A stretch of DNA of 32,000 nt from Sinorhizobium meliloti (GCF_017876815.1 NZ_JAGIOS010000002.1:1320001-1352000), one strand, 5' to 3'; shown: positions 13,352-31,119, counted from the stretch's first letter. Made by a program: numbers and translations. Notes: a model not told the origin generated them from the sequence alone.

Positions 13352-13706
13352 GGGTGTGCTCTACAATTCCGACTGTGCGCCCCTTGATGATGGTGGCCAG
13401 ACCAGAACAGGCGACGCAAAGATAGCAAAATTGGCGCGGGCTTGCCGGTGAACTCGACGGAGCTGAGATCGGCACTCCAGCGTCCATTTCCAGCCACAAA
13501 CTGGACAGTATCATTTGCTGCAACTCGTGCGTTGACGGCGAGAACTCATTTGAGTTGCCGCACCGCCTTGGCGAAGGCGCGGCTTGCAAGTAATAGGGTC
13601 TTGTGATGCACGCGCTTATTCAGTCTTTGTGCCCATGTCGGCACGCCTGCTAGCGGATTTGGGATCGACGGCTGCAGGAAGTGTGCAGCAACTGGGAACG
13701 GAGCAA

Positions 13707-14552
13707 ATGACCACAAGCGTTTTGGCAGCAAGCGGCGGCGTGAAGCAAGTCATCTGCATCAATTGGGGCACAAAATATGGAGCCCCCTTTATTAACCGGC
13801 TCTACGCGATGGTTGCTCGCAACATCACGCCGCCTTTCACCTTCACCTGTTTTACCGATTGTCGCGCAGGCCTGAACCCCGCGATACTTTGCGAAGACTT
13901 GCCTCCACTCAACGTGGAGACCATGCCGACCAACACGAGAGGCATATGGCCCAAGGCGCGGCTCTGGGGGCCGTCCTTGGGAAATCTAAAGGGCCCGGTG
14001 CTTTTTCTCGATCTGGATCTCGTGATCGTGTCATCGCTGGATGTTTTCTTCGAGATAGGGAAGGCGGATGACATAATACTGGCGAGAAACCAAACGACAC
14101 CCTTTGAGCGCCTCGGGCAAACGTCCCTCTTCCGCTTTCCGGTTGGGAAACTCGTGCCGCTGCAGGACAAGTTCCGATCCGATCCACAGGGTGTGGCCGA
14201 CGAGTATCGGTACGAGCAGCGCTTCGTAAGCCGCAAGGCGCCTGGGGGGATAAAGTTCTTTCCACGGAAATGGGTTCTTCATTTTCGCCAGGACTGCCGC
14301 TGGCCATTTCCGCTCAATTACTTCTTTGCGCCACGTCTGCCGCATGATGCACGTGTCGTGATTTTTCCGCGCGGTCTGCATCCACAGCACGCGGTAGAGG
14401 GCCGATACGGAACCAAGGGTCCCCGCAAGACGGCGTTCAAACACATAGCGGGAGTCTTCGATGCGAAGCAAAGGAAGAACAAGGGACCGCTACAATACTT
14501 GCGACATTATATCCGTCCGACGCCTTGGGTGGCGGAGCACTGGCGCGAATAA
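13707..14552 (+). CDS. Putative GT-A-like glycosyltransferase (family not assigned)
   Basis: 281-aa ORF from ATG 13707. It carries VICINWGTKYGAPFINRLYAMVARNI..FTCFTD and a DLDLV (DxD-like) motif. The context is a polysaccharide locus. The ORF is confident, but the function rests only on motifs. Confidence 0.6.
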   Translation: MTTSVLAASGGVKQVICINWGTKYGAPFINRLYAMVARNITPPFTFTCFTDCRAGLNPAILCEDLPPLNVETMPTNTRGIWPKARLWGPSLGNLKGPVLFLDLDLVIVSSLDVFFEIGKADDIILARNQTTPFERLGQTSLFRFPVGKLVPLQDKFRSDPQGVADEYRYEQRFVSRKAPGGIKFFPRKWVLHFRQDCRWPFPLNYFFAPRLPHDARVVIFPRGLHPQHAVEGRYGTKGPRKTAFKHIAGVFDAKQRKNKGPLQYLRHYIRPTPWVAEHWRE

Positions 14553-14574: not shown

Positions 14575-15546
14575 TTACGGACGGTCGAGCTTGGAACGAA
14601 TTACCGAGGCGATGCGGCGCGTTTCATCGAGTGGTTCGTAGCTGTAGGGTTCGATCTTTCCCTCAAACGGCCGGGTCAGTTGCAAAGTTTCATGCAGATC
14701 CCGGTGATAGCGCTCGAACTTGTCCAGTCGCGGACCCGCGACGTGGGTTAACTCGAGTGTAAAGACAGGCTTGCCCGTCGCCAGGGCTTCGCAGGGCATC
14801 GTGATCGAGTCCTTTGCGATGACGAACGCGTCAGCGGCCGCCATGTAGTCGAGGTAGGGGTTCTCGCTTCGCCTGTCCCAAACAGCGATCCTTTCGCTAT
14901 TGAGTGTCGACAGGGCCCGCTGAGTGTGGTCTTCAGATCTACGTGAGGCCGATACAACGATGCGCCAGCCCTCTTTCTCCAATTGCTCGATTGCGCCCTT
15001 TATGTTTTGGTGGGTTCTGTCGTCGTAAACATATGCTCCATTCGAGCCGCCTACGAAGACGGCGACTATTGGGCGCCCGTCCGGTGACAATCGTCTGAGG
15101 GCAGCATCCCTAAGAGGCGCGAGCCGCGCCCAGGTAATCTGATGCGGTACTCCGACCATCGAATGATAGTTCGGCCGCCGGTTCAATTCCTCGACCCAAT
15201 CGTGACGAGAGACGAAAACGAGATCATACCCTTCGATGCGCGGACGTTGGAGGTGCACGGTTAAGGGCTTGCCTCCATAGGCCGCTTTTATGTCGAGGAC
15301 TGCCGGTTCAGCGCGGAAACCGCAGGAGATTACGAGCTCGGGGCGCTGTTCCCTTTTGCGAAACAATCTGGGTTCGAACAGCTTTCTCAAGCCGCGAGTC
15401 CGACTGATTAACTTGACCACTGGCTCACGATGGAATTGTTTACCCACGCCAAGGCACTGCGTAAGCGTTCCCGCCTTGCTTTCTGCCACAGCCCACACGC
15501 AGCTCGTGTTGGACGTTTTCACCGTTTCGTCGTGGTTATCTTGCAA
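14575..15546 (-). CDS. ELM1/DUF1022 family protein (predicted GT-B-like glycosyltransferase)
   Basis: VWAVAESKAGTLTQCLGVGKQF resembles the N-terminus of bacterial 'mitochondrial fission ELM1' family proteins (VW...D.KAG..NQ.LGL). The 323-aa ORF is intact. Confidence 0.75.
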   Translation of the reverse strand: MQDNHDETVKTSNTSCVWAVAESKAGTLTQCLGVGKQFHREPVVKLISRTRGLRKLFEPRLFRKREQRPELVISCGFRAEPAVLDIKAAYGGKPLTVHLQRPRIEGYDLVFVSRHDWVEELNRRPNYHSMVGVPHQITWARLAPLRDAALRRLSPDGRPIVAVFVGGSNGAYVYDDRTHQNIKGAIEQLEKEGWRIVVSASRRSEDHTQRALSTLNSERIAVWDRRSENPYLDYMAAADAFVIAKDSITMPCEALATGKPVFTLELTHVAGPRLDKFERYHRDLHETLQLTRPFEGKIEPYSYEPLDETRRIASVIRSKLDRP

Positions 15547-15604: not shown

Positions 15605-16519
15605 TCACTGGCTGAGATCGATCCCATTCTTGTCGACAAAATCGATCATGCTACGGTCTTCGATGGCGTTCGCCTCGATATACCTGATAGTGGAAGTAAC
15701 TTTATTCCGGTATTTCTCCGCAGAACCGTCGAAAGACCAACCTCTGTCTGTCTTTTCCTTCAGCTCCTCGATCGATTTCGCGTAATAGTGATTGAGCTGC
15801 AGGAACTCTGCGGAGTAAAAATCGGCAGCCTTCCGCTTTTTCTTTGGCACCACCATCCCCGCATCGTTTGCGGTTTCGTCGCCGTAGGAACGTGTTTGGA
15901 AGTGATGCACGCCCACTTTCGTGACTTCGACCGGATCGACAATGCATTTGAAATTGCTTGCGTCGAGGTTCTGCCGCATGGGATCGGAGACCCGCATTTT
16001 ATAATTAAGGCATACAGGCCCTGCTGGTCGCGAGACATGACCGCTATGGCCGAACATATGCCAGGGCAAAGAGATGTTAGGAAATCCGCCGGCTCCTCGT
16101 AATGCCTCCTCTAACGTTCGACCTTTCTTGGGCAATAAGAATTCATCAACGTCGATGAAAGCCATACGCTCATATTTACCGCCGAAGTTTAAGATCGCAT
16201 GGGCGAAAGCAATCGTCTGCCCGTTCAAGAATTCACCACTTTGTTCATCCCGCATGCGCATTTTCCAAGGGACGACGGTCAGTTCTTGGCCAGTCAGCGA
16301 CCGCTGAAGCAGTTCGACCGTTCCATCAGTCGAGCCGTCATCGTAGAGATGGAAATGTCGAACACCAACAGCTTGGTGAAAGCGCACCCACTCCGCAATG
16401 TAACTCGCTTCGTTTTTCACGCAGGCGACAATCGCAATGCCGCGTCGGTTCAACTCCCCTTGCGGAGGTGTGATAGCAAGTTCTCTCGTAAGATGCCGTT
16501 TAGCCTTCAGTCCAAACAT
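15605..16519 (-). CDS. Glycosyltransferase, GT92 / GT2_4-like
   Basis: IAIVACVKNEASYIAEWVRFHQAVGVRHFHLYDDGSTDGTVELL...FIDVDEFL is the typical GT92-like N-terminal nucleotide-sugar binding region with a DxD motif. Confidence 0.8.
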   Translation of the reverse strand: MFGLKAKRHLTRELAITPPQGELNRRGIAIVACVKNEASYIAEWVRFHQAVGVRHFHLYDDGSTDGTVELLQRSLTGQELTVVPWKMRMRDEQSGEFLNGQTIAFAHAILNFGGKYERMAFIDVDEFLLPKKGRTLEEALRGAGGFPNISLPWHMFGHSGHVSRPAGPVCLNYKMRVSDPMRQNLDASNFKCIVDPVEVTKVGVHHFQTRSYGDETANDAGMVVPKKKRKAADFYSAEFLQLNHYYAKSIEELKEKTDRGWSFDGSAEKYRNKVTSTIRYIEANAIEDRSMIDFVDKNGIDLSQ

Positions 16520-16743: not shown

Positions 16744-17580
16744 GTGACCATGGACTTTCCCGCCTCCGGAACGACGGAGAATTTGACGACGGCGGAGCAA
16801 TGGCGTGCTCTGTTTTCGAGGTATTCACACGTTATCCTCGTAGCTAACAGCGATCAGGTTAACGTTAAGGAACTTCAGGCCGAATACCCGCGGACGGCCC
16901 TCTTTGTATTCTTCAACAAGGTCTACAAGGTTCTTGATGAACAATTTTCCGGCCACGCCTTGCTGATTTCGCGCGCTCAACCGAAAGGCGCCAACATTGT
17001 CTACCGACAAGAGGTCGCTGACGTCGTCAAACTATTCGCACCGCAGGACTTCCTGGGCATCATGAACATCCGCTTGGCGGCGAGCGAGAGATTGAACACA
17101 AGCTCCGATTACTTGGGAACGCCCACGGGGCATCTGGATTTGATCGGCTTCTGCGCTGACTTTTACCCGCAGGCCAAAGTCCCCACGAGCGGTTTCGCCA
17201 TCGCCTTATGGCTGGTCGACCAAGCGCTTCCGGCCAAGATTATCCTGGCGGGATTCTCGGCAAAGCGCAGCGAACAGTGGCGGGTGGTCGCTGTCCACGA
17301 TTGGACTTTCGAGCAGGTCTTCTTGCGCCTTTTCGAAAGAGTGGGCAAGTTGACGATGCATGGTGGTATCGCCACAAACAGTTACGCATCGCTTGCTTCA
17401 AGGTTCCCGGAGTTGCCCGCTGCGGAAATATCTTCGACGATCGCAGAAGTCTTGTCATCGCGTCTGAACCAGACCGATGCACAAGTGGACAAGTTGATAT
17501 CTCTCACAAACGTGTTGCGGTCCATCGACGAATTTTTACGTCGGCTGAAGCCGAAGTTTCTGAAGAAAACGAAGCCATAA
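16744..17580 (+). CDS. Sialyltransferase-fold protein P1 (GT29-like S and VS motifs)
   Basis: VILVANSDQV, FFNKV, VPTSGFAIALWLVDQALPAKIILAGFS (sialylmotif S-like, P-T/S-S-G...GF) and HDWTFE (H-x4-E, VS-like) occur in this order. Confidence 0.65.
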   Translation: MTMDFPASGTTENLTTAEQWRALFSRYSHVILVANSDQVNVKELQAEYPRTALFVFFNKVYKVLDEQFSGHALLISRAQPKGANIVYRQEVADVVKLFAPQDFLGIMNIRLAASERLNTSSDYLGTPTGHLDLIGFCADFYPQAKVPTSGFAIALWLVDQALPAKIILAGFSAKRSEQWRVVAVHDWTFEQVFLRLFERVGKLTMHGGIATNSYASLASRFPELPAAEISSTIAEVLSSRLNQTDAQVDKLISLTNVLRSIDEFLRRLKPKFLKKTKP

Positions 17581-17622
17581 ACAGCATCGAATTGACGAGT
17601 ACCGATTTTCTGGTGAGGACAA

Positions 17623-18354
17623 ATGGGATCATGGATCTCCGACGCACGTAAGCGCATATACCGGAATCTGAAGTACCGCATCATGCGGCCGGATCCGCCG
17701 GCCGCGCCCTTTCGATTCAACAGCCCTGTCGTGGTTGTAGGATCCGCGCCTGTCTCCAATAGGCCGGCCGGATTGGACGAGAGCTTCAGGATCATTACCG
17801 TGAACGGCTCGCAATCGGTCATCGCCAAGTGGGGCGTTGATGCGCCGGATATTACCATGATGATGTTCAACCAGGTCGAAGGAACCACTGCGAACGCGAT
17901 CGAGGTCAGGCGTGTGCTGAAAGGGCAGCGTACAGGGACGCTCTACGTATTTCTCTGGCGCAAGGACGATCGCGCGCGCCTCGAGGAAGGTTTGCGAGCG
18001 TTCGACTATAAATACGATCGACTGGAAATCGTCGATCGATATGAGCGGATGGCGTTGCTGGATCGTGTGGCTGACTTGCGCTCCCTCGAGATGGACGCCG
18101 ATTCCAAGTGCTCGAACGGTATGAACGCGGTCCTTTTTGCCCTCTACAACGGAGCACCCGCCGTCATCGTCACGGGAATCAATCCGAACTCAAGCGGTCA
18201 CGTCTACAATTCAACGGGTTTGACGCGTCTTCATGTTCAAATGGACAAAGTCCTCGTTTCCAAGCTGATTAGTGAGGGCCGCCCCATTTTCACGGCGGAT
18301 CCGCCGGTTTCGGAAGAATTAGGCATTCCGTTGTGGAGCGGTAAAAACCGCTAG
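17623..18354 (+). CDS. Sialyltransferase-fold protein P2 (GT42/Cst-like motif order)
   Basis: A GAGG SD precedes the start. The ORF carries VVVVGSAPVS, ITVNGS and KCSNGMNAVLFALYNGAPAVIVTGINPNSSGHVYN...RLHVQMD. It is clearly paralogous to P4 (21879-22814). Confidence 0.7.
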   Translation: MGSWISDARKRIYRNLKYRIMRPDPPAAPFRFNSPVVVVGSAPVSNRPAGLDESFRIITVNGSQSVIAKWGVDAPDITMMMFNQVEGTTANAIEVRRVLKGQRTGTLYVFLWRKDDRARLEEGLRAFDYKYDRLEIVDRYERMALLDRVADLRSLEMDADSKCSNGMNAVLFALYNGAPAVIVTGINPNSSGHVYNSTGLTRLHVQMDKVLVSKLISEGRPIFTADPPVSEELGIPLWSGKNR

Positions 18355-18416
18355 TCCTTTGCATATTTGCCCTGTGTCGTCGTTTTGCTCGCTCAACGCC
18401 TGCGTTAGAGAAATCA

Positions 18417-19322
18417 ATGGTTTTAAATCGTCCATTTTCACGTTCCTGCATCAAGATCGCCGTTCGCCTCCTACTGGGTCGTTCCAGGGCCCATGTTCAG
18501 GATTGGTTTCCCGGACTGAAGCTCGAACTTGCAACCGCTGATCGAGACGGCACGATCCAGTATCGAGGCGAGTTGGTAGGACGTCTAACGAGCCCGTTGC
18601 GCGCCCTGGAAGAAAAGCCGGGGAATGTGCTTATCGTCGGCTCCGGCCCCTCGGTGGCACGATGCGATCTGACCCGCGCAGACGGGTCTTCCTGCCTTCT
18701 CTTGAACGGCGCGCTACACCTTTTTCCCAGCGTAATCGCAAAGCCTCTGGCGATAGCAATTGAAGACGAACGGTTCGTATGGAGACACTTCGATCTCGTG
18801 AAGCGGATTCCTGCCGGATGCGTCTGTCTGCTGTCTGTGAGCGTGATAAGGGCGATCTGCGAGCTGGATCGCACATGGCTGCGAGACAGGCCGATCGTAT
18901 TGATCGATAACGTGCGAAAGCCGTACGGGGTGGCACGTCGGGACACCGCGGAACTGCGTAAGCTGGCGTATGTGAGGCTGAGCGAGGACGGCGACGTCGG
19001 CTTTTCCGAAGACCCCTTTGCCGGCATTTTCCAGGCAGGCTCGGTCGCGGTTTCAGCCGCACAGTTTGCCGTCGCCTGGAGGCCCCGCTCGATCGGCTTC
19101 GTCGGGATCGATCTCAGTAATGCCGATGAACCGAGGTACTACGAAACAACTGATAAAGCCTATTCGGGAATCGTCGCGGCCCAAAAGCGGATCGTCGACC
19201 ATCTGGTGATGACACGGAGTATAGCCGCCGAAAGCGGTATCGAGGTCGTAAACCACTCGCCTATCTCGGCCCTTGTCGGGATGGGGTTTGGCTACGACGC
19301 CACCTTTGCCAAAGCTGAGTGA
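18417..19322 (+). CDS. Sialyltransferase-fold / DUF115 (Maf, MptE-like) protein P3
   Basis: VLIVGSGPSV, LLLNGA and AGSVAVSAAQFAVAWRPRSIGFVGIDLS follow the same motif order as Cst-II (IIAGNGPSL ... TSGVYMCAVAIALGYKEIYLSGIDFY). Confidence 0.65.
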   Translation: MVLNRPFSRSCIKIAVRLLLGRSRAHVQDWFPGLKLELATADRDGTIQYRGELVGRLTSPLRALEEKPGNVLIVGSGPSVARCDLTRADGSSCLLLNGALHLFPSVIAKPLAIAIEDERFVWRHFDLVKRIPAGCVCLLSVSVIRAICELDRTWLRDRPIVLIDNVRKPYGVARRDTAELRKLAYVRLSEDGDVGFSEDPFAGIFQAGSVAVSAAQFAVAWRPRSIGFVGIDLSNADEPRYYETTDKAYSGIVAAQKRIVDHLVMTRSIAAESGIEVVNHSPISALVGMGFGYDATFAKAE

Positions 19323-19449: not shown

Positions 19450-20139
19450 TTAAGCCGAGCGCTGCGTTACATGAAGAACACGATCACGTGTAGCGAACCA
19501 TTCCTCGGCGTAATCATCGTTCTTATACTCATCGAAGTAAGGCCCTCCATCTGTGAAATGGACAAGCTTTGCATCCGGCGAATATTCGTACTCGTTTACG
19601 AGCCAGTTCCAACTTGCGGGCAGTTCGCCGATCAGGTCGTCGGACTCTAGCCATTTGAACTGATGCAACTCCAGCCCAGACGCAGTATTGACGTAATCCA
19701 AATCGAGCTTTCGGCACTTGGCGTTATTGAACAGGATCACGCTCGACCAGTTCTTCTTTTCGTACTTGGTTTGGACCTGGCCCAGGAACTTCGTTTCGAC
19801 TTTCGGAACGTAGTCGTGTTTTACGCACATCGCTGCATAGCGATCGTCTCTCAACTCCCACAACTGGGCGATGTCAGTCCGCATGAGCATGTCGCAGTCG
19901 GCGAAAAGCGACCAGCCCTCATAACGGCTTAGATAAGGCACCAGGAATCGCGAAAAGGAAAACTCGGTAGATTGGAGAGGATTCCGCTCGCGCGTAAAAA
20001 TATTTTCGACATTGTTCAAGGATATCGGCGTGAACGTAACCGGGATGGAGCTCTTTTCCAGAATACTTTGGCAAAGAACATGATAGGCGACGACTTCCTT
20101 GCTGTCGAAGCCGATGTAAATATGAGCACCTTGCGTCAT
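19450..20139 (-). CDS. GT8-like (GT-A) glycosyltransferase
   Basis: IYIGFDSKEVVAYHVLCQSI...QSTEFSFSRFLVPYLSRYEGWSLFADCDML follows a pattern I associate with small bacterial/phage GT8-like transferases. The gene looks AT-richer by eye. Confidence 0.7.
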   Translation of the reverse strand: MTQGAHIYIGFDSKEVVAYHVLCQSILEKSSIPVTFTPISLNNVENIFTRERNPLQSTEFSFSRFLVPYLSRYEGWSLFADCDMLMRTDIAQLWELRDDRYAAMCVKHDYVPKVETKFLGQVQTKYEKKNWSSVILFNNAKCRKLDLDYVNTASGLELHQFKWLESDDLIGELPASWNWLVNEYEYSPDAKLVHFTDGGPYFDEYKNDDYAEEWFATRDRVLHVTQRSA

Positions 20140-20409
20140 TTCACCTCCGATTATGGGTAGGCTTCAAAACGTCGTTGGTCTGGCTTGATCCTCTAAGCGG
20201 CGAAACGATTTCAACTGACGTTTGATTTGCGTCTCAACCCAGGTGTAACCAAAAAAGGCCGCGGCGTGAAGCCTGCGGCAGCGGAACGATGTGGTTGGTT
20301 GTCCGTCGTCCACAGGAGGGCGTCTGGCAATTTCCGCGAACTTCGCCTAGTAGCTTTGTCGCTGGCCCGCGATAGTGCCACCAATGCGGGCGAGGGCAAT
20401 GGGGGAAGA

Positions 20410-21903
20410 ATGCGCAGTCTCCTGGTTCGAAGACCGGATCTCTTATACGTTCTGATCGCCGGCTATTGCCTGCTGAGCATCATCCTGAAAGTTCTTCGAC
20501 CGGACTCGCTTGAGATAGACGAATCCGAGCAAGCACTGCTGTCACAATATCTGCTGCTCGGATACGGAGCCCAGCCACCCTTCTACAATTGGCTTCAATA
20601 TGGAGTCGTGGCGCTATTTGGTATCTCTGTTGCGTCGCTCGCCATTGTAAAAAACGGTCTTCTGTTCCTCTTCCTTCTATTCTACGGGCTCACGGCGCGC
20701 CTTCTCTCCAGCAGTCGGCTCGTTCCGGCGGTGGCGGTGCTGGGCGTCCTCACGCTCCCACCGGTTTTCCTGCTGTCACAGCGCGACTTATCGCACACCG
20801 TCGCCGCGTTATTTGCGGTGTCGCTGTTCCTCTACGGCTTCTTCCGTGCGCTAAAGAGCCCACCAAAGGTTGGCCATTATTTGCTTGTCGGCGTTGCCGT
20901 GGGGCTCGGGGCGATTACCAAGTACAATTTCGTTATCTTGCCGGTGGCGGCACTGCTCGCCATTCTGCCAGAGGCAAAGCTGCGCAAATATCTGTTCGAC
21001 TGGCGTGTGCTCGCATCAGTTGCGGTTTGCGCCATGATCGTGGCACCCCATGCCTACTGGATCGTCAATAATCTTGGACATGCCACCGGTGTCACTGTCG
21101 CTGAGATGAAGGAGGGGGCAGATAGCGCGCGGCTTCCGCACGCGATCCAAGGCCTTGTTTCCCTCGCGGTTGCGGCCCTAAAGGGCGTCGCACTGACCCT
21201 TGCCGTCTTCGGATTGCTCTTCTACGCGGATGTCGGGAAAATCCTGCGCGCCGAGAGCCTAGGGACGAGGGTCATCGGCAGGATGATTGTCGCCTGCTTC
21301 CTCATAATAGCGTTTATCGTGGTAGCAATGGATGCGACCCACATCCGTGCGAAATGGTTGGCGCTTTTTACTGCGCTCCTCCCACTTTATCTGACGCTGA
21401 AAATCGATGCCGCCGGCCTGGATCCTGCCCGGCGCCTGCCCGCACTTTTTTCGATTTCGGGCATCCTCTCCGTCGGCGTCATCGTGATGCTGTGGGCAAG
21501 GGTCTTTGTAGGACCAATGATTGGCGATTATTCCTTCGCGCACACGCCTTACAACGGTTTTGCCAGCACGGTGCGCGCTGATCCGGGTCCGCCCCCGGTG
21601 GCCATCGTGGTCGACGACAGGATCGTGGCGGGTAATCTTAGGATTCAGTTTCCCGATACCCCGATCATCCTAACCGGATTTTCTCAGGAGGCGGAGAGAC
21701 ACCTTCCCCCAGGTCGAATCTTGGCGGCCTGGTCGGCAGAAGGTAAGGGGCGAGAGGCGATTCCTCCTCGCATTACGGCCCTACTGAAACTCATGCCCGC
21801 CAGGATTGCCGACGCAACGCCGACGATCGTCTCAGTTCCTTACAACGCCGGGCGCCCGGGCGACACATACACTTTCGCCTATATTTGGGCGGACTTCCAC
21901 TGA
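20410..21903 (+). CDS. ArnT/PMT-family GT-C glycosyltransferase (GT39/GT83-like)
   Basis: The start is taken at ATG 20410 (MRSLLVRRPDLLYV...). It carries DESEQALLSQYLLLGYGAQPPFYNWL (the DE..QA...PP.Y.WL loop typical of ArnT-like enzymes), has 10 or more hydrophobic helices and a soluble C-terminal domain. Confidence 0.8.
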   Translation: MRSLLVRRPDLLYVLIAGYCLLSIILKVLRPDSLEIDESEQALLSQYLLLGYGAQPPFYNWLQYGVVALFGISVASLAIVKNGLLFLFLLFYGLTARLLSSSRLVPAVAVLGVLTLPPVFLLSQRDLSHTVAALFAVSLFLYGFFRALKSPPKVGHYLLVGVAVGLGAITKYNFVILPVAALLAILPEAKLRKYLFDWRVLASVAVCAMIVAPHAYWIVNNLGHATGVTVAEMKEGADSARLPHAIQGLVSLAVAALKGVALTLAVFGLLFYADVGKILRAESLGTRVIGRMIVACFLIIAFIVVAMDATHIRAKWLALFTALLPLYLTLKIDAAGLDPARRLPALFSISGILSVGVIVMLWARVFVGPMIGDYSFAHTPYNGFASTVRADPGPPPVAIVVDDRIVAGNLRIQFPDTPIILTGFSQEAERHLPPGRILAAWSAEGKGREAIPPRITALLKLMPARIADATPTIVSVPYNAGRPGDTYTFAYIWADFH

Positions 21904-22814
21904 GCCGGGTTGGCGCCGATCGCGCCGCCCATGTTGCGAATGATGTCTTCTCTGTCGCGAATGAAAGGGAGGCCGATATGCTCAGAGAGTTCCAGCTCCG
22001 TCGTGAAGACATTTCCTCGATCACTCAAACGCCTCAGAACGAAGGTGTCTTCAGCAATCTGCCGGCGAATTCTGCCCTTATCGTCGTAAGAATGGCCCAT
22101 CTTGGTAACTGAGAACCCGGCAAGCGTCACGGACGGCACTCCCATGAAAAGTGCATAGCACAGGGCGGCAACTCCGTTCGTCACCTTGCCGACTTCTCCA
22201 ATATCGGAGGGAAGCCCGCCACTGACGGCGTTGACGATCGCTTCGCGCTCAGCTTTGGTGGCGCGCATCAGGCTCTTGTAGCGAACATGCGGCATTGCCA
22301 GAAGTTTCAGGTACATCACCCAGATAGACTTCGTATGAAGCCATAGAAGGCCCCTCGTCCTTACATAGGGATGCTCTTCCCACGATTTCTTGCGCTTTCG
22401 AAACGTCAAATCGGCGGGTGGGAGACCCAGTGCATTGGCCGTCTTGCCAGCGTTATTGACGTCGACGCGTGCGCAATGTCCAATCAGGTCCGGCGGAATC
22501 GTGGGGGAGGGCGCGGAACCGAGAATCAGCCACGGCTTGTCGACAATGCCGAGTCGCGAGAGCCAGCGGCGGTGCTTTTCTCGCAGTTTTTCAAGCGCTT
22601 CAGGTTCAATCGTCATCGCGAATTCCATTGACGAGGTGGGCAGCCGAGATTCACTTAAGGGACTGACATTTATGTCTCGCACAAGCCACGCTACGTGTCC
22701 ATTCGCCGCCGGATCTTCGACTAGAAGGGGTGAGCCGGTACTGCAATTTCTCAATACTCTGTCGCCACGCTTCAGAAAGCGTGGAAATACCCGTGAATCG
22801 CACAATTTAGCCAT
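21879..22814 (-). CDS. Sialyltransferase-fold protein P4 (paralogue of P2)
   Basis: WLILGSAPSP, VDVNNAG and KVTNGVAALCYALFMGVPSVTLAGFSVTKMGHSYDD are present. The start is uncertain: ATG 22814, or the internal ATG 22628, which would match P2's length. The 3' end overlaps the convergent GT-C gene by 25 nt. Confidence 0.65.
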   Translation of the reverse strand: MAKLCDSRVFPRFLKRGDRVLRNCSTGSPLLVEDPAANGHVAWLVRDINVSPLSESRLPTSSMEFAMTIEPEALEKLREKHRRWLSRLGIVDKPWLILGSAPSPTIPPDLIGHCARVDVNNAGKTANALGLPPADLTFRKRKKSWEEHPYVRTRGLLWLHTKSIWVMYLKLLAMPHVRYKSLMRATKAEREAIVNAVSGGLPSDIGEVGKVTNGVAALCYALFMGVPSVTLAGFSVTKMGHSYDDKGRIRRQIAEDTFVLRRLSDRGNVFTTELELSEHIGLPFIRDREDIIRNMGGAIGANPAQWKSAQI

Positions 22815-22890: not shown

Positions 22891-23880
22891 ATGAACGTAG
22901 TTGTAAGTGACCCAATACTGGCGTCGATCAGTCGTACGATCGCGACTGCCGCCGACGGCATCAATGCGCTGGCGGGCTGTCTGGAGGATGATGCGGCCTT
23001 CCGCCGTAGTTTTGTCGATGCCATCGAACTCGTCGCCTCCAAGCGTGGCCGGGTCGTTGTGGCGGGTGTTGGCAAGAGCGGGCACATCGGACGCAAGATC
23101 GCCGCGACGCTAGCTTCCACCGGTACGTCCGCCTATTTCGTGCATCCGACGGAAGCAAGTCACGGCGATCTCGGCATGATCACCGCCGAAGATTTGCTCA
23201 TCCTGCTTTCATGGTCCGGTGAGACGGTCGAACTCGGGAACGTACTCACTTACGCCAAGCGCTTCAATGTCCCGGTCATTTCCGTCACGTCGAATGCCGA
23301 TAGCACAATCGCTCGCAACTCCACGATCCCCGTGGTTCTGCCGAAAGTGCCGGAGGCATGCCCACATGGTCTAGCCCCGACCACGTCTGCAATGCTGCAG
23401 TTGGCGGTGGGGGATGCTTTTGCAATAGCCTTGCTTGAGCGGAGGGGTTTTTCGGCCGAGGACTTCAAGACGTTTCATCCGGGCGGTAAGCTCGGTTCGC
23501 AGTTGCTGCTCGCCCATGAGCTGGCCCATTCGGGCGAGGCTGTGCCACTTTTGCCGATCGGCAGTCCGATGAGCGAAGCGGTCATCCAGATGTCTTCGAA
23601 GGGTTTCGGGGTCGTCGGCGTCGTTGGTGGCGACGGTGAGCTTGTCGGTGTCATTACCGACGGCGATTTGCGGCGACACATGTCACAAAATCTATTGCTC
23701 CTCACCGTCGAGACCGTGATGTCGCACATGCCTCGCGTGATTACGCCTGGAATGCTGGCCAGTGCGGCCATGGAAATGATGCAATCGCAAAAGATCACGG
23801 TGCTGTTTCTGGTCGATGATTTTGGCCGGCCGTCGGGCATCTTGCACGTCCACGATCTTCTGCGTGCCGGCGTTGCCTAA
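22891..23880 (+). CDS. kpsF: Arabinose-5-phosphate isomerase, KpsF/GutQ family (SIS + tandem CBS)
   Basis: GRVVVAGVGKSGHIGRKIAATLASTGTSAYFVHPTEASHGDLGMI is the SIS core. Two CBS-like repeats sit at the C-terminus (VGVVGGDGELVGVITDGDLRR; VLFLVDDFGRPSGILHVHDLLRAG). Confidence 0.9.
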   Translation: MNVVVSDPILASISRTIATAADGINALAGCLEDDAAFRRSFVDAIELVASKRGRVVVAGVGKSGHIGRKIAATLASTGTSAYFVHPTEASHGDLGMITAEDLLILLSWSGETVELGNVLTYAKRFNVPVISVTSNADSTIARNSTIPVVLPKVPEACPHGLAPTTSAMLQLAVGDAFAIALLERRGFSAEDFKTFHPGGKLGSQLLLAHELAHSGEAVPLLPIGSPMSEAVIQMSSKGFGVVGVVGGDGELVGVITDGDLRRHMSQNLLLLTVETVMSHMPRVITPGMLASAAMEMMQSQKITVLFLVDDFGRPSGILHVHDLLRAGVA

Positions 23881-23992: not shown

Positions 23993-26026
23993 ATGGGAAC
24001 GCGCTTGGCAGTAATCCACCGAGACTTCGAGTATCGCCCGGACCTGGATGGTTTGCGAGCCGTGGCGATCTTACCTGTGCTCCTCTTTCACGCAGGCTTC
24101 AGTTCGTTCTCAGGCGGATTCGTCGGGGTCGATGTATTTTTTGTCTTGTCCGGGTTTTTTATGGCGAGGATCATCCTCACCGACCTCGAGCGCGGCAGCT
24201 TCAGCTTTTGGTCGTTCTATCTTCGGCGGATGAGGCGCATCTTCCCGGCATTGTTCTCGATGATCGCCGTTTCGGCCGTTGCGGGATGGTTTTTGCTCAT
24301 GCCGCAGGAGTTTCGGTATTTCGGCGATAGCATACAATCTGCTGCCTTATTTACTTCGAACATCCTGTTTCGTAGCGAGAGCGGCTATTTCGATCTCTCC
24401 TCAGAAATGAAGCCATTGCTTCATACCTGGTCTCTGTCGGTGGAAGAGCAGTTTTACCTGATTTTTCCCGTCGCGGTTTTCCTTGCCTTCAAATTCGCAC
24501 ATAGGCACATTCGTGCAATCGTGTTGGCAGTTGCGCTCTTGTCCTTCGGGGCAAGCACTTGGGGGATTGTTCACTCGCCCGAAAAAGCATTCTACTTGCT
24601 GCATTTTCGCGTTTGGGAGTTGCTGATCGGAGTCCTTGTTGCCATTGCTCCTGCCTCAACTTATGGGGCCCGCGGCTCGCAGGCATTGGCGGCACTCGGA
24701 CTGCTGGCAGTTCTCCTGGCCGTTTTCGTCTATTCTCCTGATACGCCCTTTCCCGGTATTTATGCCGCAGTGCCCTGCCTCGGTACGGCCCTTGTGATCC
24801 ACGCACACTGTCGAGGCGGAGCGATAGGGCGCTTACTGGGTAATCCCGTTTCGGTCTTCATCGGACGCATCTCATACTCCCTCTACCTCTGGCATTGGCC
24901 CATCATCGTGTTCCTTCGCTATGGCCTTGGCCACGAACTGACAACCGGATGGGCGCTGACCGCCGTGGCGATGTCCTTCGCGCTCGCATACATTTCATGG
25001 AGGTTTGTCGAGCAGCCCGCGCGGTATGGCGTGCTGGCCTCCTCGCGCGTCGCGATCATCGGCGTGAGTAGCGCCGCTATTTCTTCGGCGGTCGCCTTCG
25101 GCTTCATTGTCAATGACCTGGAAGGTATTCCCCAAAGGTTGCCCGAAAAGGCCCGAACGCTTTACCAAGCCACCTATGATGAGAGCCCATTCTCCTCGAG
25201 CCGGTGTTTCACCGATTCAAATGGGGAAGGTCTGACACCGGTTCAGATAAGGAGAGGGGAGATCTGCCGGGTCGGAGTCGAGACTGCGGGCGAGCCGCGG
25301 TTCCTCGTGTGGGGAGATTCTCATGCCGCTGCGATCGCTCCTGCTATTGACCTTGCCGCTCGCCAAATGAGTATATCGGGCATGTTCGTCGGGCGCGGAT
25401 CGTGCCCGCCCTTGCCCAATACGGATTTCGGTCCTCCGGGGGCGGTCAAGAGATGCATCGAACACAATTCTGCAGTGATGTCGCTAATCGAGAAGAGAAA
25501 GTTCGCCTTTGTTTTCATGGTGGGCTATTGGCCTAAGTACGTCCACCGAGAAGAGCTGCCGGGTCAGGGCATCTTCTTTGACCCTGGCGTCGCACCTCCC
25601 CGGACCGATTGGTCTATTCCGGTCAGGAAGGGACTTGATGCGACTTTGACCAAGCTCGCTCGGCAGGGATCGAAGGCGATTCTTGTGATGGATGTACCGG
25701 AGATGGGATTCGACGTTCCCGAGGCTCTCGCACGAGCGGCTGCGTCTGGACGCTCGCTCGATATAGCTCCTTCTGTTGAATACACCAACAGGCGCCAAGC
25801 CTTGGCCCGGCGGGTCTTGGCGGATGCGGCCAAGTCGAGCGGAGCCTTGGTTGTCGATCCGATGAGCGAAATCTGCGACGCCTCCAGGTGTCATGTTATG
25901 CGAGAAGGCACCGTTCTCTATAAGGACGGAGATCACCTGTCGGCGAAAGGTGCGGAAAGTCTCTCAGCACTCTTCCGACCCGTGCTGAGCATGATGCGAG
26001 AGAGCGTCCAGGCTGCGAATCGCTGA
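23993..26026 (+). CDS. Acyltransferase-3 (OafA/YrhL) with C-terminal SGNH domain; polysaccharide O-acyl/acetyltransferase
   Basis: RPDLDGLRAVAILPVLLFHAGFSSFSGGFVGVDVFFVLSGF is the AT3 signature. The protein has 10 or more TM helices and then a soluble tail with GDSHA (SGNH block I-like). Confidence 0.9.
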   Translation: MGTRLAVIHRDFEYRPDLDGLRAVAILPVLLFHAGFSSFSGGFVGVDVFFVLSGFFMARIILTDLERGSFSFWSFYLRRMRRIFPALFSMIAVSAVAGWFLLMPQEFRYFGDSIQSAALFTSNILFRSESGYFDLSSEMKPLLHTWSLSVEEQFYLIFPVAVFLAFKFAHRHIRAIVLAVALLSFGASTWGIVHSPEKAFYLLHFRVWELLIGVLVAIAPASTYGARGSQALAALGLLAVLLAVFVYSPDTPFPGIYAAVPCLGTALVIHAHCRGGAIGRLLGNPVSVFIGRISYSLYLWHWPIIVFLRYGLGHELTTGWALTAVAMSFALAYISWRFVEQPARYGVLASSRVAIIGVSSAAISSAVAFGFIVNDLEGIPQRLPEKARTLYQATYDESPFSSSRCFTDSNGEGLTPVQIRRGEICRVGVETAGEPRFLVWGDSHAAAIAPAIDLAARQMSISGMFVGRGSCPPLPNTDFGPPGAVKRCIEHNSAVMSLIEKRKFAFVFMVGYWPKYVHREELPGQGIFFDPGVAPPRTDWSIPVRKGLDATLTKLARQGSKAILVMDVPEMGFDVPEALARAAASGRSLDIAPSVEYTNRRQALARRVLADAAKSSGALVVDPMSEICDASRCHVMREGTVLYKDGDHLSAKGAESLSALFRPVLSMMRESVQAANR

Positions 26027-30043: not shown

Positions 30044-30378
30044 CTGGTGGCTCGAGGCCTTACAGGCGAGGAAGGTGGACGAGCCGCTGACACGGCAATC
30101 TCCCTGGGTCAGCCCGCTTCCTCATTGCGCATCGCCCTTAGGAATTAGCTTGATCGTCGAGTGTTGAACTTGAATTGGGTCGGGCCGACACACGGGAGTG
30201 AAAGGCAGTTTCAATTCCAACTGCAGCGCGGAAAACCTTCGAGCCCAGCCGCCGGGACTAGTTGGAGCCGAGGCTATGCATAGGACGCAATTGCGAGGGG
30301 CATCGGCCCGAGTTTGCTGCAGTTTTCGCTTTCGATGAGGGGCGGGTTCGACGTTTCCGGCTAAGGAGTGGCCAGGCA

Positions 30379-31119
30379 GTGATTATATCCCATCGCCACA
30401 AGTTCATTTTCATCCACGTACCGAAAACCGCCGGCAGCACGGTTTCTGCCTTTCTCGCTCGCGAATTCGGACCATGGGATCTGCAACTTGGGTCCTGGAA
30501 GGATGCACTCGGAAATGGAGCCAAAGCCAATCGGCTGGCGCTGATTGCTATGTTCTGCCATCTGTCTCCACTTAAGATCGCCCAAACCCTCATCCGCAAC
30601 CACAGTGTCGATTCATTGGCCGGTGTCGCTCTCAGCCGGCGTTTTGCAGGCAGACTCGCGGATCATTCGAGCGCAAGCGAAATCGAGGCCTTCGATCCCT
30701 CTGCCTGGAAACAGTATTTCAAATTCTGTTTCGTGCGAAACCCGTTCGAGAGGGCTGTTTCTCTTTACAATTGGCACTACAGGAAGGCCGATACCCGGCC
30801 GAGCTTCTCGCAAATGCTCTGCTTGATCGAAGCAGGTGCAGCTGAGAAAGAGCGTATTAATTGGAAATCGTGGCAGCTCTACACCAAGAACGACGAAGTT
30901 GTTGTTGATTTCGTAGGTCGGCAGGAGCGCCTCTCGGAAGATCTACGCAACGTATGCGACAGACTCGGGCTGCCTTTCGATGAACGATTCCTGACCAGAG
31001 CGAAGGCGAACCCAAGGAGGCCGGATATTCGCAATTATTATAAACCCGGCGACCGGGAACGCGTCGAACGGCTGTTCGGCGCCGAGATCGAACATTTCAA
31101 GTATCGTTTCCCCGAGTAG
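30379..31119 (+). CDS. Sulfotransferase (Sulfotransfer_2-like)
   Basis: HKFIFIHVPKTAGSTV is the 5'-PSB PAPS loop and FVRNPFERAVSLY is the 3'-PB motif. The start is placed at GTG 30379, after an AAGGAG SD. The ORF track extends to 30262. Confidence 0.8.
   Translation: MIISHRHKFIFIHVPKTAGSTVSAFLAREFGPWDLQLGSWKDALGNGAKANRLALIAMFCHLSPLKIAQTLIRNHSVDSLAGVALSRRFAGRLADHSSASEIEAFDPSAWKQYFKFCFVRNPFERAVSLYNWHYRKADTRPSFSQMLCLIEAGAAEKERINWKSWQLYTKNDEVVVDFVGRQERLSEDLRNVCDRLGLPFDERFLTRAKANPRRPDIRNYYKPGDRERVERLFGAEIEHFKYRFPE

What the first reader, a model, noticed from the sequence alone, without database searches (positions are those of the whole stretch)
16744..19322. Three tandem, plus one nearby, sialyltransferase-fold paralogues next to kpsF: candidate ulosonic-acid (Kdo-type) transferases
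P1, P2, P3 and P4 (P4 at 21879-22814) share one motif order. It starts with an N-terminal h-h-(V/L)-G-S-x-P-S strand, then a short (N/C)N-type motif, then (S/T)-x-G ... A ... G ... I/V-x-x-x-G-(F/I), followed by a His. This is the layout of Cst-II/GT42, Maf/DUF115 and eukaryotic GT29 enzymes. P1 even has P-T-S-G...AGFS and HDWTFE, which is the H-x4-E of the GT29 VS motif. All of those enzymes use CMP-activated nonulosonic or octulosonic acids. The only sugar-precursor gene in the locus is kpsF (22891-23880), which performs the first step to Kdo. Four divergent paralogues suggest assembly of a Kdo-rich or Kdo-like polymer or core with several distinct linkages. To my knowledge the transferases for rhizobial Kdo-type K-antigens are poorly defined.
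Basis: partly seen in the sequence, partly recalled or inferred. Interest (0 to 1): 0.7.

Follow-up and report, generated by a model that had tools for sequence, protein, structure and literature searches.

The report
Sialyltransferase-fold Kdo-capsule genes, one misnamed kdsB2
Four genes on the Sinorhizobium meliloti pSymB megaplasmid encode proteins built like sialic-acid transferases; three of them were already linked by mutation to the bacterium's Kdo capsule, and one has been wrongly labelled for 25 years as a Kdo-activating enzyme.

Summary
The window is S. meliloti pSymB (100% identical to strain SM11). P1, P2 and P3 are kdsB2/SMb20803, SMb20804 and SMb20805. P4 is a fourth gene beside kpsF.

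Fold evidence:
- P2 and P4 are true paralogues (hhalign E 3.5e-57) of an unannotated family. The AlphaFold model and the sequence profile both hit Cst-II (GT42; Foldseek E 7e-6, hmmsearch E 4e-5).
- P3 belongs to Pfam WaaZ_KDO_III (PF27901). 94 of 95 family members hit the NCBIfam WaaZ model.
- P1 has no cytidylyltransferase signature. Its model hits viral GT29 sialyltransferases (probability 0.93-0.99), and its profile aligns weakly but co-linearly with P2/P4 (P about 5e-4).

The Kdo link is already published genetics (Muller et al. 2009, as cited in a 2017 Tn-seq paper): kdsB2, smb20804 and smb20805 mutations affect Kdo-homopolymer capsule polymerisation.

Caveats:
- The capsule is beta-linked, while all known enzymes of this fold invert CMP-beta-sugars to alpha products.
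- P4 does not share the Tn-seq phenotype.
- P1 travels with a very conserved GT8-like gene, often beside tuf.

Verdict: a sound re-annotation in a known enzyme superfamily, of moderate interest.

The parts
16750..17580 (+). P1 = kdsB2 / SMb20803 (276 aa from the ATG; the ORF lister starts it at the GTG at 16744). A divergent GT29-like protein with a probable sialyltransferase fold, mis-annotated as CMP-Kdo synthetase.
   Evidence: Locus tag assigned from 1021 coordinates. No Pfam or NCBIfam hit for P1, and none of 79 family members hits a cytidylyltransferase model. No similarity to E. coli KdsB apart from a 21-aa patch. AF2 core pLDDT above 90. Foldseek against BFVD: top hit E 4.6e-6, a GT29 protein at probability 0.99 and a sialyltransferase at 0.93. 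Best TM in PDB is ST6Gal1. hhalign to the P2/P4 family P about 5e-4 over 159 columns. Invariant N35-S36, N58, P147-T148-G150, G170-F171, H185-D186-W187 and E190.
17623..18354 (+). P2 = SMb20804 (243 aa, annotated 'membrane-anchored protein'). A Cst-II/GT42-like candidate transferase for a CMP-activated ulosonic acid.
   Evidence: AF2 pLDDT 90.7. The top 13 Foldseek PDB hits are Cst-II or Cst-I, apart from a Pasteurella sialyltransferase at rank 10 (E 7e-6, probability 1.0), followed by MptE and ST8SiaIII. The family profile hits Cst-II at E 4e-5. Motifs GSAP, VN, SNG, TGIN, GHxY and RxHxxxD are present.
18417..19322 (+). P3 = SMb20805 (301 aa, annotated 'glycosyl transferase'). A member of the WaaZ_KDO_III (PF27901, GT73-type) family.
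   Evidence: NCBIfam TIGR04437 E 3.6e-7, and 94 of 95 family members match it with best E 5e-13. Homologues, including one 97% identical, carry PF27901, which is WaaZ_KDO_III. Weak MptE-like/DUF115 match. Best PDB sequence hit is Maf 5MU5 at the GSGPS motif, E 0.2.
21879..22616 (-). P4 (245 aa from the internal Met; by gene numbering presumably SMb20808). A paralogue of P2 with Gln in place of the family's near-invariant His. Divergent from kpsF.
   Evidence: BLASTP to P2 E 4e-15. hhalign E 3.5e-57. Start site. Q186 versus His in 93 of 107 family members.
22891..23880 (+). kpsF (arabinose-5-phosphate isomerase), the first step of Kdo synthesis.
   Evidence: TIGR00393 kpsF 273 bits, above its cut-off; SIS plus CBS domains.
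19450..20139 (-). GT8-like glycosyltransferase = SMb20806. The constant partner of P1 in other genomes, with the same Tn-seq phenotype.
   Evidence: Pfam GT8 E 1.9e-4. Adjacent to P1 in 79 of 80 loci at 74-98% identity. Start/stop overlap with the P1 homologue in L016 and a 4-nt gap in L079. NCR247 competition index 6.7-9.1.
15605..16519 (-). GT92-family glycosyltransferase = SMb20563, with the same Tn-seq phenotype as P1-P3.
   Evidence: Pfam PF01697 E 5e-41. Competition index 5.1-5.7. Present near P1 in 30 of 80 loci.
14575..15546 (-). ELM1/GtrOC1-family protein, the same family as the A. baumannii CMP-Kdo transferase KdoT.
   Evidence: Pfam PF06258 E 1e-74 across the full length. KdoT is described as 'ELM1-like' and shown to be a CMP-Kdo transferase in PMC12856342.

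Best explanation
P1-P4 are four members of the sialyltransferase-type (GT-A variant; GT29/GT42/GT73/DUF115) superfamily, falling into three deeply diverged families:
- P2 and P4 form a previously unannotated Cst-II-like family.
- P3 is a WaaZ_KDO_III-family enzyme.
- P1, the published 'KdsB2', is not a CMP-Kdo synthetase. It is a very divergent GT29-like protein that keeps L-, S- and VS-like sialylmotifs.

Proposed mechanism (inferred). Each protein binds a CMP-activated 2-keto-3-deoxy acid sugar through the N-terminal G-S-x-P / V-A-N-S loop, the beta2 Asn and the (S/T)-x-G helix. It then transfers that sugar to an acceptor hydroxyl using a His base: H185 in P1 and H204 in P2. The most likely donor is CMP-Kdo, which needs the KpsF reaction encoded next door.

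Shown by others: transposon or insertion mutants of kdsB2, smb20804 and smb20805 alter polymerisation of the Kdo-homopolymer K antigen. In Tn-seq these three genes, together with the flanking GT92 and GT8-like genes, form one phenotypic unit.

Inferred: they act as Kdo transferases in making that capsule or an oligosaccharide it depends on. This fold is known only as inverting, whereas the capsule is beta-linked. A role in a primer, adaptor or cap, or in a separate alpha-Kdo-containing glycan, is therefore at least as likely as a role as the chain polymerase itself.
For: Identity of the genes.

Fold of P2: Foldseek matches to Cst-II, Cst-I, MptE and ST8SiaIII at E 7e-6 to 7e-4. The family profile hits Cst-II at E 4e-5 on the CMP-binding segment.

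P4 and P2 belong to one family.

P3: the WaaZ models match 94 of 95 family members, and PF27901 is WaaZ_KDO_III.

P1: no KdsB signature. Viral GT29 and sialyltransferase structural hits at probability 0.93-0.99. ST6Gal1 is the best TM match in PDB. Co-linear hhalign to P2/P4 at P about 5e-4, against 0.26 for a reversed control.

Precedents for Kdo transfer by this fold: GT73 (PMC5811610), Maf with Kdo and plant GT29 RCKT1.

Genetics: Muller et al. 2009 as cited in PMC5539429. Tn-seq competition indices are 5-10 for SMb20563 and SMb20803 to SMb20806, the opposite of the LPS-core mutants lpsB-E.

kpsF is adjacent. The locus is conserved in all S. meliloti and S. medicae pSymB records, matching the reported presence of poly-Kdo across Sinorhizobium.
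Against: - No biochemical data exist for any of the four proteins.
- The capsule is beta-(2-7)-Kdo. The only known retaining ulosonic-acid transferases are GT99 and GT107; GT29 and GT42 are inverting.
- The placement of P1 rests on moderate scores: nothing in PDB reaches E 0.001, and hhalign probability is about 30%.
- The fold also houses non-transferases, namely MptE kinase, thiamin pyrophosphokinase and SteA.
- P4 has Gln at the candidate base position and does not share the Tn-seq phenotype.
- The P1 family occurs mostly outside capsule loci, as a pair with a GT8-like gene next to tuf/nusG. kpsF is near P1 in only 6 of 80 loci.
- I could not read Muller et al. 2009 itself.
Confidence: 0.6

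Rival explanations
1. The proteins are Kdo transferases, but not the capsule polymerase. They add alpha-Kdo (inverting chemistry) to a primer, adaptor, cap or branched oligosaccharide, built together with the GT92 and GT8-like enzymes. The beta-(2-7) chain itself is made by a retaining KpsC/RkpZ-type enzyme encoded elsewhere. Loss of the primer or cap would then change polymer length indirectly.
For: All known GT29 and GT42 enzymes invert; only GT99 and GT107 retain. The phenotypic unit includes two hexose-type GT-A enzymes, GT92 and GT8-like, which a pure Kdo homopolymer would not need. No Capsule_synth (GT107) domain was found among the ten proteins scanned. From my own memory, not verified here: RkpZ resembles KpsC and changes poly-Kdo size.
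Against: No such primer or cap structure has been described for the S. meliloti capsule in the papers I could read. The RkpZ-KpsC link could not be checked (one search found nothing). This is a refinement of the best explanation, not a contradiction of it.
Confidence: 0.3
2. They are LPS-core Kdo transferases of the WaaZ/LpcB type that add outer-core alpha-Kdo residues. The capsule phenotype is then secondary.
For: P3 belongs to the WaaZ family. Its Rhizobium orthologue (51% identity) sits in the LPS-core region beside greA and a GT4 lpsB/lpcC-like gene, together with a Pfam-GT29 protein. The locus also has a GT39/ArnT-like gene and an ELM1/KdoT-like gene. R. leguminosarum LpcB is a CMP-Kdo core transferase; whether it is the P3 orthologue is my recollection and was not tested.
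Against: In Tn-seq, LPS-core mutants (lpsB, C, D, E) lose fitness under NCR247 and polymyxin B, with competition indices of 0.01-0.49. Mutants in P1-P3 gain fitness 7-10-fold under NCR247 and are nearly neutral to polymyxin. The authors assign these genes to capsule polymerisation.
Confidence: 0.12
3. P1 really is a second CMP-Kdo synthetase (KdsB2), as annotated. It would supply donor for P2 and P3.
For: The deposited annotation in many genomes. A 21-residue patch resembles E. coli KdsB, E 0.17.
Against: No hit to CTP_transf_3 or any KdsB/KpsU model for P1 or any of 79 relatives, even at E up to 1. No cytidylyltransferase structure appears among the PDB matches. The structural neighbours are GT29 sialyltransferases. 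The motifs match sialylmotifs S and VS.
Confidence: 0.03
4. Some or all of the four proteins are not glycosyltransferases. They might use the same fold as small-molecule pyrophosphokinases or kinases (MptE- or TPK-like), act as regulators (SteA-like), or serve as non-catalytic scaffold subunits. This is most plausible for P4, and possibly for P1.
For: MptE HPPK, SteA and thiamin pyrophosphokinases are among the structural neighbours. P4 lacks the near-invariant His and shows no shared phenotype.
Against: The best structural and sequence matches are sialyltransferases. The matched sequence segment is the Cst-II stretch RITSG...GIDFY...SSY, which from my recollection includes the CMP-sugar-binding residues. 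The genomic context is entirely glycan synthesis.
Confidence: 0.08
5. They transfer a different CMP-activated sugar (a nonulosonic acid such as pseudaminic or legionaminic acid, or a Kdo derivative) rather than Kdo.
For: Most characterised relatives (GT42, GT29, Maf) use nonulosonic acids. Maf enzymes are promiscuous between Neu5Ac and Kdo. Other Sinorhizobium K antigens contain Pse or Kdx.
Against: The window has no nonulosonic-acid synthesis genes. The locus is conserved in strains with different K antigens, including 1021, which makes only poly-Kdo. kpsF is adjacent. The mutants affect the Kdo polymer.
Confidence: 0.07

Closest known systems
Cst-II / Cst-I of Campylobacter jejuni (CAZy GT42; PDB 1RO7, 2P2V)
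   Same: P2, and P4 by homology, share the single-domain GT-A-variant fold (Foldseek E 7e-6, TM about 0.5). At sequence-profile level they share the helix-strand-Tyr segment: RITSG...GIDFY..SSY aligned with kiSnG...GfSl..GHsY (E 4e-5).
   Different: About 10-12% identity, no Pfam or CAZy family assignment, and a much shorter lid region. The putative base lies in an R-x-H-x3-D motif. The donor is presumed to be CMP-Kdo rather than CMP-Neu5Ac. P4 has Gln in place of the His.
WaaZ, the Kdo-III transferase of E. coli K-12/Salmonella core (TIGR04437, PF27901; CAZy GT73)
   Same: P3 and its family match the WaaZ models across about 200 residues. The presumed donor, CMP-Kdo, is the same. The G-S-G-P-S and G-I-D motifs are shared.
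   Different: The match is far below the equivalog cut-off (29.8 vs 200 bits). P3 sits in a megaplasmid capsule-associated operon rather than the waa locus, and its mutant phenotype is on the K antigen, not the LPS core.
GT29 sialyltransferases, including the bacterial (mostly alpha-proteobacterial) GT29-like proteins and plant RCKT1 (putative CMP-Kdo transferase)
   Same: The structural neighbours of P1 are a viral GT29 protein and a viral sialyltransferase, plus ST6Gal1. P1 has L-like (V-A-N-S), S-like (P-T-S-G...A-G-F-S) and VS-like (H-x4-E) motifs that are invariant in its family. Bacterial GT29 proteins likewise lack the TM domain and the Cys pair. Plant GT29 proteins are proposed to use CMP-Kdo.
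   Different: None of the 79 P1-family members reaches Pfam PF00777 even at E 1. P1 carries a long C-terminal helix. It is always paired with a GT8-like gene.
Maf / DUF115 (MptE-like, PF01973) flagellin nonulosonic-acid transferases
   Same: P3 has a weak PF01973 match, and some homologues carry PF01973. The best PDB sequence hit for P3 is Maf 5MU5. MptE 8SD5 is a structural neighbour of P2. Maf can transfer Kdo.
   Different: There is no flagellin context, the proteins are single-domain and much shorter, and the matches are below threshold.
KdoT of Acinetobacter baumannii (ELM1-like family, GT-B, CMP-Kdo:Kdo2-lipid A Kdo-III transferase)
   Same: This concerns a neighbouring gene, not P1-P4. 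The window's 14575-15546 product is a full-length PF06258 member (E 1e-74), the family to which KdoT is assigned.
   Different: It has a different fold (GT-B) from P1-P4. It is not in the NCR247 Tn-seq hit list. Its orthology to KdoT was not tested at sequence level here.
KpsC/KpsS (GT107) and WbbB (GT99) retaining beta-Kdo transferases
   Same: They make beta-Kdo linkages, including beta-(2-7), which is the linkage type of the S. meliloti capsule.
   Different: They have a modified GT-B architecture and a double-displacement mechanism. Nothing in P1-P4 or the ten scanned neighbours matches them.

Membership tests
GT42 (Cst-II-like sialyltransferases) | Single-domain GT-A-variant fold with a central parallel sheet | tested here: met
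   P2 model (pLDDT 90.7): the top 13 PDB matches are Cst-II or Cst-I, apart from a Pasteurella sialyltransferase at rank 10, with probability 1.0 and TM 0.46-0.52. P4 qualifies by homology to P2.
GT42 (Cst-II-like sialyltransferases) | Sequence-level family membership (recognisable by a family HMM) | tested here: not met
   P2 has no Pfam or NCBIfam family at E up to 1, and P4 shows only an irrelevant sub-threshold hit (YqbF_HeH, E 0.048). Only a local 37-41-residue profile match to Cst-II was found, E 4e-5. Five of 107 relatives touch PF00777 and four touch PF01973, all weakly.
GT42 (Cst-II-like sialyltransferases) | Catalytic His base (His188 in Cst-II) and phosphate-binding Tyr residues | tested here: inconclusive
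   The Tyr of G-H-x-Y aligns with Cst-II Tyr162. R-x-H-x3-D is nearly invariant: His in 93 of 107 and Asp in 105 of 107 members. P2 has the His, while P4 has Gln. Equivalence to His188 is inferred from position only.
GT73 / WaaZ_KDO_III (PF27901, TIGR04437) | Match to the family HMM | tested here: met
   Met for P3 at Pfam family level. PF27901 is recorded on homologues including the 97%-identical P0001. TIGR04437 matches 94 of 95 members, best E 5e-13. Not met at NCBIfam equivalog level (29.8 bits vs cut-off 200).
GT73 / WaaZ_KDO_III (PF27901, TIGR04437) | Transfers Kdo from CMP-Kdo to an inner-core Kdo | not testable with these tools
   This needs an enzyme assay. The Tn-seq phenotype differs from that of LPS-core mutants.
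GT29 sialyltransferases | Sialylmotifs L, S, III and VS in order | tested here: inconclusive
   P1 has, in order and invariant in 79 sequences: an L-like motif (V-A-N35-S36), an S-like motif (P147-T148-S-G150 ... G170-F171) and a VS-like motif (H185-x4-E190). Motif III was not identified. The motif definitions come from PMC5811610 and my own knowledge.
GT29 sialyltransferases | Match to Pfam PF00777 | tested here: not met
   None of 79 P1-family members matches at E up to 1.
GT29 sialyltransferases | GT29-type fold | tested here: inconclusive
   BFVD: a GT29 protein (ChoanoV1) at probability 0.99, E 8.6e-3; a ChHV5 sialyltransferase at probability 0.93; the top hit is uncharacterised, E 4.6e-6. 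PDB: ST6Gal1 has the best TM (0.39-0.40) but E 0.27.
KdsB/KpsU CMP-Kdo synthetase (PF02348) | Cytidylyltransferase domain | tested here: not met
   P1 has no hit at E up to 1 in Pfam or NCBIfam, and neither do its 79 relatives. BLASTP against E. coli KdsB (sequence recalled from memory) gave only a 21-aa patch, E 0.17. No cytidylyltransferase appears among the PDB fold matches.
DUF115 / MptE-like (PF01973) | Match to the family HMM above its cut-off | tested here: not met
   P3 scores E 0.0027, 17.9 bits, against a cut-off of 34.6. Some homologues have a precomputed PF01973 hit.
Retaining beta-Kdo transferases (GT99 WbbB, GT107 KpsC/KpsS) | Modified GT-B architecture or Capsule_synth domain | tested here: not met
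   No such Pfam hit in P1-P4 or the six neighbours scanned. The P2 fold is a single-domain GT-A variant.
ELM1/KdoT family (neighbouring gene 14575-15546) | Full-length PF06258 domain | tested here: met
   E 9.9e-75, profile positions 1-304 of 304. KdoT is described as ELM1-like and shown to transfer Kdo.

The most novel reading that the evidence does not exclude
The kdsB2-SMb20804-SMb20805 proteins are themselves the polymerase system for the beta-(2-7) Kdo homopolymer. In that case a GT29/GT42/GT73-type fold would here catalyse retaining transfer of a ulosonic acid, a stereochemical outcome so far known only for the GT99 and GT107 modified GT-B enzymes. A related possibility is that the ubiquitous, tuf-linked GT8-like + P1 pair makes a conserved, still undescribed Kdo-containing glycan common to Rhizobiaceae and Aurantimonadaceae.
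Probability: 0.12. Interest if true: 0.8.

Novelty: new member of a known kind. Interest (0 to 1): 0.45.

Why it matters
No enzyme that builds a rhizobial Kdo-type K antigen has been biochemically defined. This analysis turns three genetically implicated but uninformatively or wrongly named genes ('kdsB2', 'membrane-anchored protein', 'glycosyl transferase') into concrete candidates with predicted donor-binding and catalytic residues.

It removes a propagated mis-annotation: hundreds of 'CMP-Kdo synthetase' entries in Rhizobiales have no cytidylyltransferase domain.

It defines two unannotated sialyltransferase-fold families.

It exposes a stereochemical puzzle that can be tested directly: an inverting-type fold associated with a beta-linked polymer.

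The capsule modulates sensitivity to the host NCR247 peptide, so the enzymology bears on symbiosis.

Tried and rejected
- BLASTP among the four proteins detects only P2-P4.
- Shallow profile-profile comparisons (Neff 2-4) found nothing.
- HMM searches of PDB sequences with the P1, P2 and P3 family alignments were not significant. Only the deeper P2/P4 superfamily profile reached Cst-II.
- Adding AF2-derived secondary structure to hhalign did not raise the P1 score; the SS term stayed at 0.
- The P1 model against PDB gave no hit below E 0.03.
- P1 and the P2/P4 and P3 profiles against a single Rhizobium Pfam-GT29 protein were not significant, although the P1 alignment was in motif register.
- The paper by Muller et al. 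2009 is not held, so its results are taken from a citing paper and from my memory of the abstract.
- A literature link between RkpZ and KpsC could not be found.
- The region downstream of the window holds other polysaccharide genes, but not the rkp-3 capsule export genes.
- PDB sequence searches for the GT8-like protein and the 13707-14552 'glycosyl transferase' found nothing.
- Cluster look-ups of distant P2/P4 relatives gave only 'hypothetical' or 'membrane-anchored' names.
- The promoter/terminator scan was uninformative.
- The idea that P1 is a real KdsB was rejected.

Full report
**Where the window comes from.** The 10.5 kb around the finding is 100% identical to pSymB of Sinorhizobium meliloti SM11. 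It is at least 95% identical in nearly all S. meliloti and S. medicae pSymB records. In strain 1021 the finding's 2.58 kb (P1-P3) maps to pSymB 588354-590932. A published Tn-seq table gives SM_b20803 kdsB2 at 588360-589190, SM_b20804 at 589233-589964, SM_b20805 at 590027-590932, SM_b20806 at 591060-591749 (minus strand) and SM_b20563 at 587215-588129 (minus strand). So P1 = KdsB2, P2 = SMb20804 and P3 = SMb20805. The GT8-like gene at 19450-20139 is SMb20806, and the GT92 gene at 15605-16519 is SMb20563.

**Checking the observation.** The four ORFs exist. P1-P3 are tandem with gaps of 42 and 62 nt and no terminator-like site between them. GenBank starts P4 at an internal Met (245 aa, 21879-22616), and all P4 homologues align only from about residue 67. 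The shared motif order is real, and each motif is invariant or nearly so within its own family. P1, however, lacks G-S-x-P-S and has V-A-N-S-D instead. Only P2 and P4 are demonstrable paralogues (BLASTP E 4e-15; profile-profile E 3.5e-57).

**Fold of P2 and P4.** An AlphaFold2 model of P2 built on 84 homologues is confident (pLDDT 90.7, pTM 0.90). Its top 13 PDB matches are Cst-II or Cst-I (GT42), apart from a Pasteurella sialyltransferase at rank 10. These are followed by archaeal MptE (DUF115), human ST8SiaIII (GT29) and SteA, with E values from 7e-6 to 7e-4 and probability 1.0. A deep search with P4 gave 135 diverse relatives. A profile of 107 of them hits Cst-II at sequence level (E 4e-5). 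The aligned segments are 'kiSnGvfavllalylgapeVvlsGfSlskdGHsYn' and Cst-II 'RITSGVYMCAVAIALGYKEIYLSGIDFYQNGSSYA'. This family has no Pfam model. Its members are named only 'hypothetical' or 'membrane-anchored protein'. Its conserved columns are G-S-A-P, V-N, S-(N/T)-G, G-(F/I)-S, G-H-x-Y and R-x-H-x3-D. P2 has the His of the last motif, while P4 has Gln, as do 10 of 107 members.

**P3.** P3 matches NCBIfam WaaZ_KDO_III (E 3.6e-7 over 200 residues), and 94 of 95 family members match it (best E 5e-13). Its homologues carry PF27901, which another tool names WaaZ_KDO_III. It also shows weak MptE-like/DUF115 similarity, and its best PDB sequence hit is the Maf protein 5MU5 at the G-S-G-P-S motif (E 0.2). 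GT73 (WaaZ) is described as a GT-A-type CMP-Kdo transferase family. In Rhizobium wenxiniae the P3 orthologue (51% identity) lies in the LPS-core region beside greA and a GT4 gene. A 221-aa protein that hits Pfam Glyco_transf_29 is nearby.

**P1, the published 'KdsB2'.** GenBank calls it 3-deoxy-manno-octulosonate cytidylyltransferase. Neither P1 nor any of 79 relatives hits any Pfam cytidylyltransferase model, even at E 1, and P1 has no NCBIfam hit at all. Against E. coli KdsB (sequence recalled from memory) only a 21-residue patch aligns (E 0.17). That patch may be the origin of the name.

The AlphaFold model has a confident core (residues 10-170 above 90) and a low-confidence C-terminal helix. 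Against PDB nothing is significant, although the best TM-score belongs to ST6Gal1. Against viral predicted structures the picture is clearer:
- top hit E 4.6e-6, an uncharacterised ChoanoV1 protein;
- a ChoanoV1 'Glycosyltransferase family 29' protein at probability 0.99;
- a herpesvirus sialyltransferase at probability 0.93.

Profile-profile alignment of P1 to the P2/P4 superfamily is co-linear over 115-159 columns (P 4e-4 to 9e-4, probability 23-36%). A reversed-sequence control gives P 0.26. The invariant P1 residues reproduce L-, S- and VS-like sialylmotifs: V-A-N-S, P-T-S-G...A-G-F-S and H185-x4-E190. I conclude that P1 is probably (about 75-80%) a divergent GT29-like protein and almost certainly not a CMP-Kdo synthetase.

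**What is already known about function.** A 2017 Tn-seq paper states that the S. meliloti 1021 capsule is a beta-(2-7)-linked Kdo homopolymer on a lipid anchor. Citing Muller, Forsberg & Keating 2009, it says that mutations in rkpA, kdsB2, smb20804 and smb20805 affect it. I could not obtain the 2009 paper.

In the Tn-seq table, insertions in five contiguous genes raise fitness under the NCR247 peptide. These are SMb20563 (GT92), kdsB2, SMb20804, SMb20805 and SMb20806 (GT8-like), with a 5- to 10-fold rise. The genes for the GT39 protein, P4, kpsF and the acyltransferase, and upstream the ELM1-like and 13584-14552 genes, are not on the list. LPS-core mutants (lpsB-E) behave in the opposite way. 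This argues that P1-P3 act in one pathway with the two hexose-type transferases. It also argues that this pathway is distinct from essential LPS-core assembly, and that P4 is either redundant or acts elsewhere.

**Mechanistic tension.** A 2022 paper on WbbB states that GT99 and GT107 are the only known retaining ulosonic-acid transferases. It lists GT29, 38, 42, 52, 80, 97 and 100 as inverting sialyltransferase families. A beta-Kdo polymer made from CMP-beta-Kdo needs retention. If P1-P3 behave like their structural relatives, they make alpha-Kdo linkages. They would then more probably build a primer, adaptor, cap or separate oligosaccharide than the beta chain itself. Precedents for Kdo use by this fold exist: WaaZ/GT73, Maf enzymes that transfer Kdo and plant GT29 RCKT1.

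1. The gene at 14575-15546 is a full-length ELM1/PF06258 protein (E 1e-74). The Acinetobacter 'ELM1-like' protein KdoT was shown in 2025 to be a CMP-Kdo transferase, and a Rickettsia homologue complements its loss.
2. A scan of one genome per species found P1 relatives only in Hyphomicrobiales (124 loci, 80 examined). The GT8-like gene is adjacent in 79 of 80, at 74-98% identity even where P1 has fallen to 43-50%. It is usually directly upstream: the stop and start overlap in L016, and a 4-nt gap separates them in L079.
3. P2 is nearby in 35 of the 80 loci, GT92 in 30, P3 in only 13 and kpsF in 6.
4. In 44 of the 80 loci the pair lies next to the secE-nusG-rplKA cluster, with tuf (EF-Tu) detected upstream in 24 of them. 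These include the R. tropici group, A. vitis/Allorhizobium, Ciceribacter and the Aurantimonadaceae.

The ancestral unit is therefore GT8-like + P1 in a housekeeping neighbourhood. The Sinorhizobium pSymB cluster is an elaborated version of it.

**Verdict.** The Kdo-transferase function is plausible and agrees with published genetics, but it remains unproven and faces the stereochemical problem above. The new elements are the re-annotation of KdsB2, the definition of the P2/P4 Cst-II-like family, and the conserved GT8-like + P1 module. I rate this as new members of a known enzyme superfamily, of moderate interest (0.45). There is a small chance (about 0.12) of a more surprising outcome: a retaining sialyltransferase-fold Kdo polymerase, or an undescribed conserved Kdo glycan.

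Noticed in passing
window 19450-20139 (-) and loci L002-L081: The GT8-like protein SMb20806 is adjacent to the P1 homologue in 79 of 80 genomes. It stays 74-98% identical across Rhizobiaceae and Aurantimonadaceae while P1 drops to 43-50%. The two ORFs overlap at stop/start in L016 (7279-7965 and 7962-8846) and are 4 nt apart in L079. This is an unusually conserved two-gene module of unknown product.
   Followed up: partly
L012-L048, L063, L068, L070-L081 (e.g. L016 4079-11418): In 44 of 80 loci the GT8-like + P1 pair lies next to the secE-nusG-rplKA ribosomal cluster, with tuf (EF-Tu) detected upstream in 24. In the R. tropici group an NAD-dependent epimerase accompanies the pair. Many of these hits lie on contigs of about 20-22 kb, perhaps because duplicated tuf genes break assemblies there (not verified).
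   Followed up: partly
window 14575-15546 (-): A full-length ELM1/PF06258 protein (E 1e-74). This is the family of A. baumannii KdoT, shown in 2025 to be a CMP-Kdo transferase. It is therefore a further candidate Kdo transferase in this locus. It is not in the NCR247 Tn-seq hit list.
   Followed up: partly
window 21879-22814 (-), residue 186 of the 245-aa form: P4 has Gln where 93 of 107 family members have the His of the R-x-H-x3-D motif. Its long ORF is probably over-extended by 66 codons. Its 3' end overlaps the 3' end of the convergent GT39 gene by 25 nt (21879-21903).
   Followed up: partly
window 20227-21903 (+), 23993-26026 (+), 26558-28147 (-), 28220-30043 (+), 30262-31119 (+): The rest of the cluster encodes a GT39/PMT_2 (ArnT-like) membrane transferase and, by the deposited annotation only, an acyltransferase-family protein, a polysaccharide pyruvyl transferase, an ABC transporter and a family-2 sulfotransferase. 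This is more decoration machinery than a plain Kdo homopolymer would need.
   Followed up: no
L082 2532-8536 (Rhizobium wenxiniae): The Rhizobium orthologue of P3 sits in the LPS-core region beside greA and a GT4 gene. With it are a 221-aa protein that hits Pfam Glyco_transf_29, a Methyltransf_21 protein and a pyruvyl transferase. This suggests that sialyltransferase-fold enzymes are a general feature of rhizobial core/Kdo glycan assembly.
   Followed up: partly
window 13584-14552 (+) (GenBank CDS about 13707-14552): A protein annotated 'glycosyl transferase' with a DLD motif has no Pfam, NCBIfam or PDB sequence match. It co-occurs with the ELM1-like and GT92 genes in 17 of 80 P1 loci.
   Followed up: no
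window 16744-17580, residues 58-78: A 21-residue patch of P1 (NKVYKVLDEQFSGHALLISRA) resembles E. coli KdsB residues 140-158 (52% identity, E 0.17). This may be the origin of the propagated kdsB2 / 'CMP-Kdo synthetase' annotation.
   Followed up: yes
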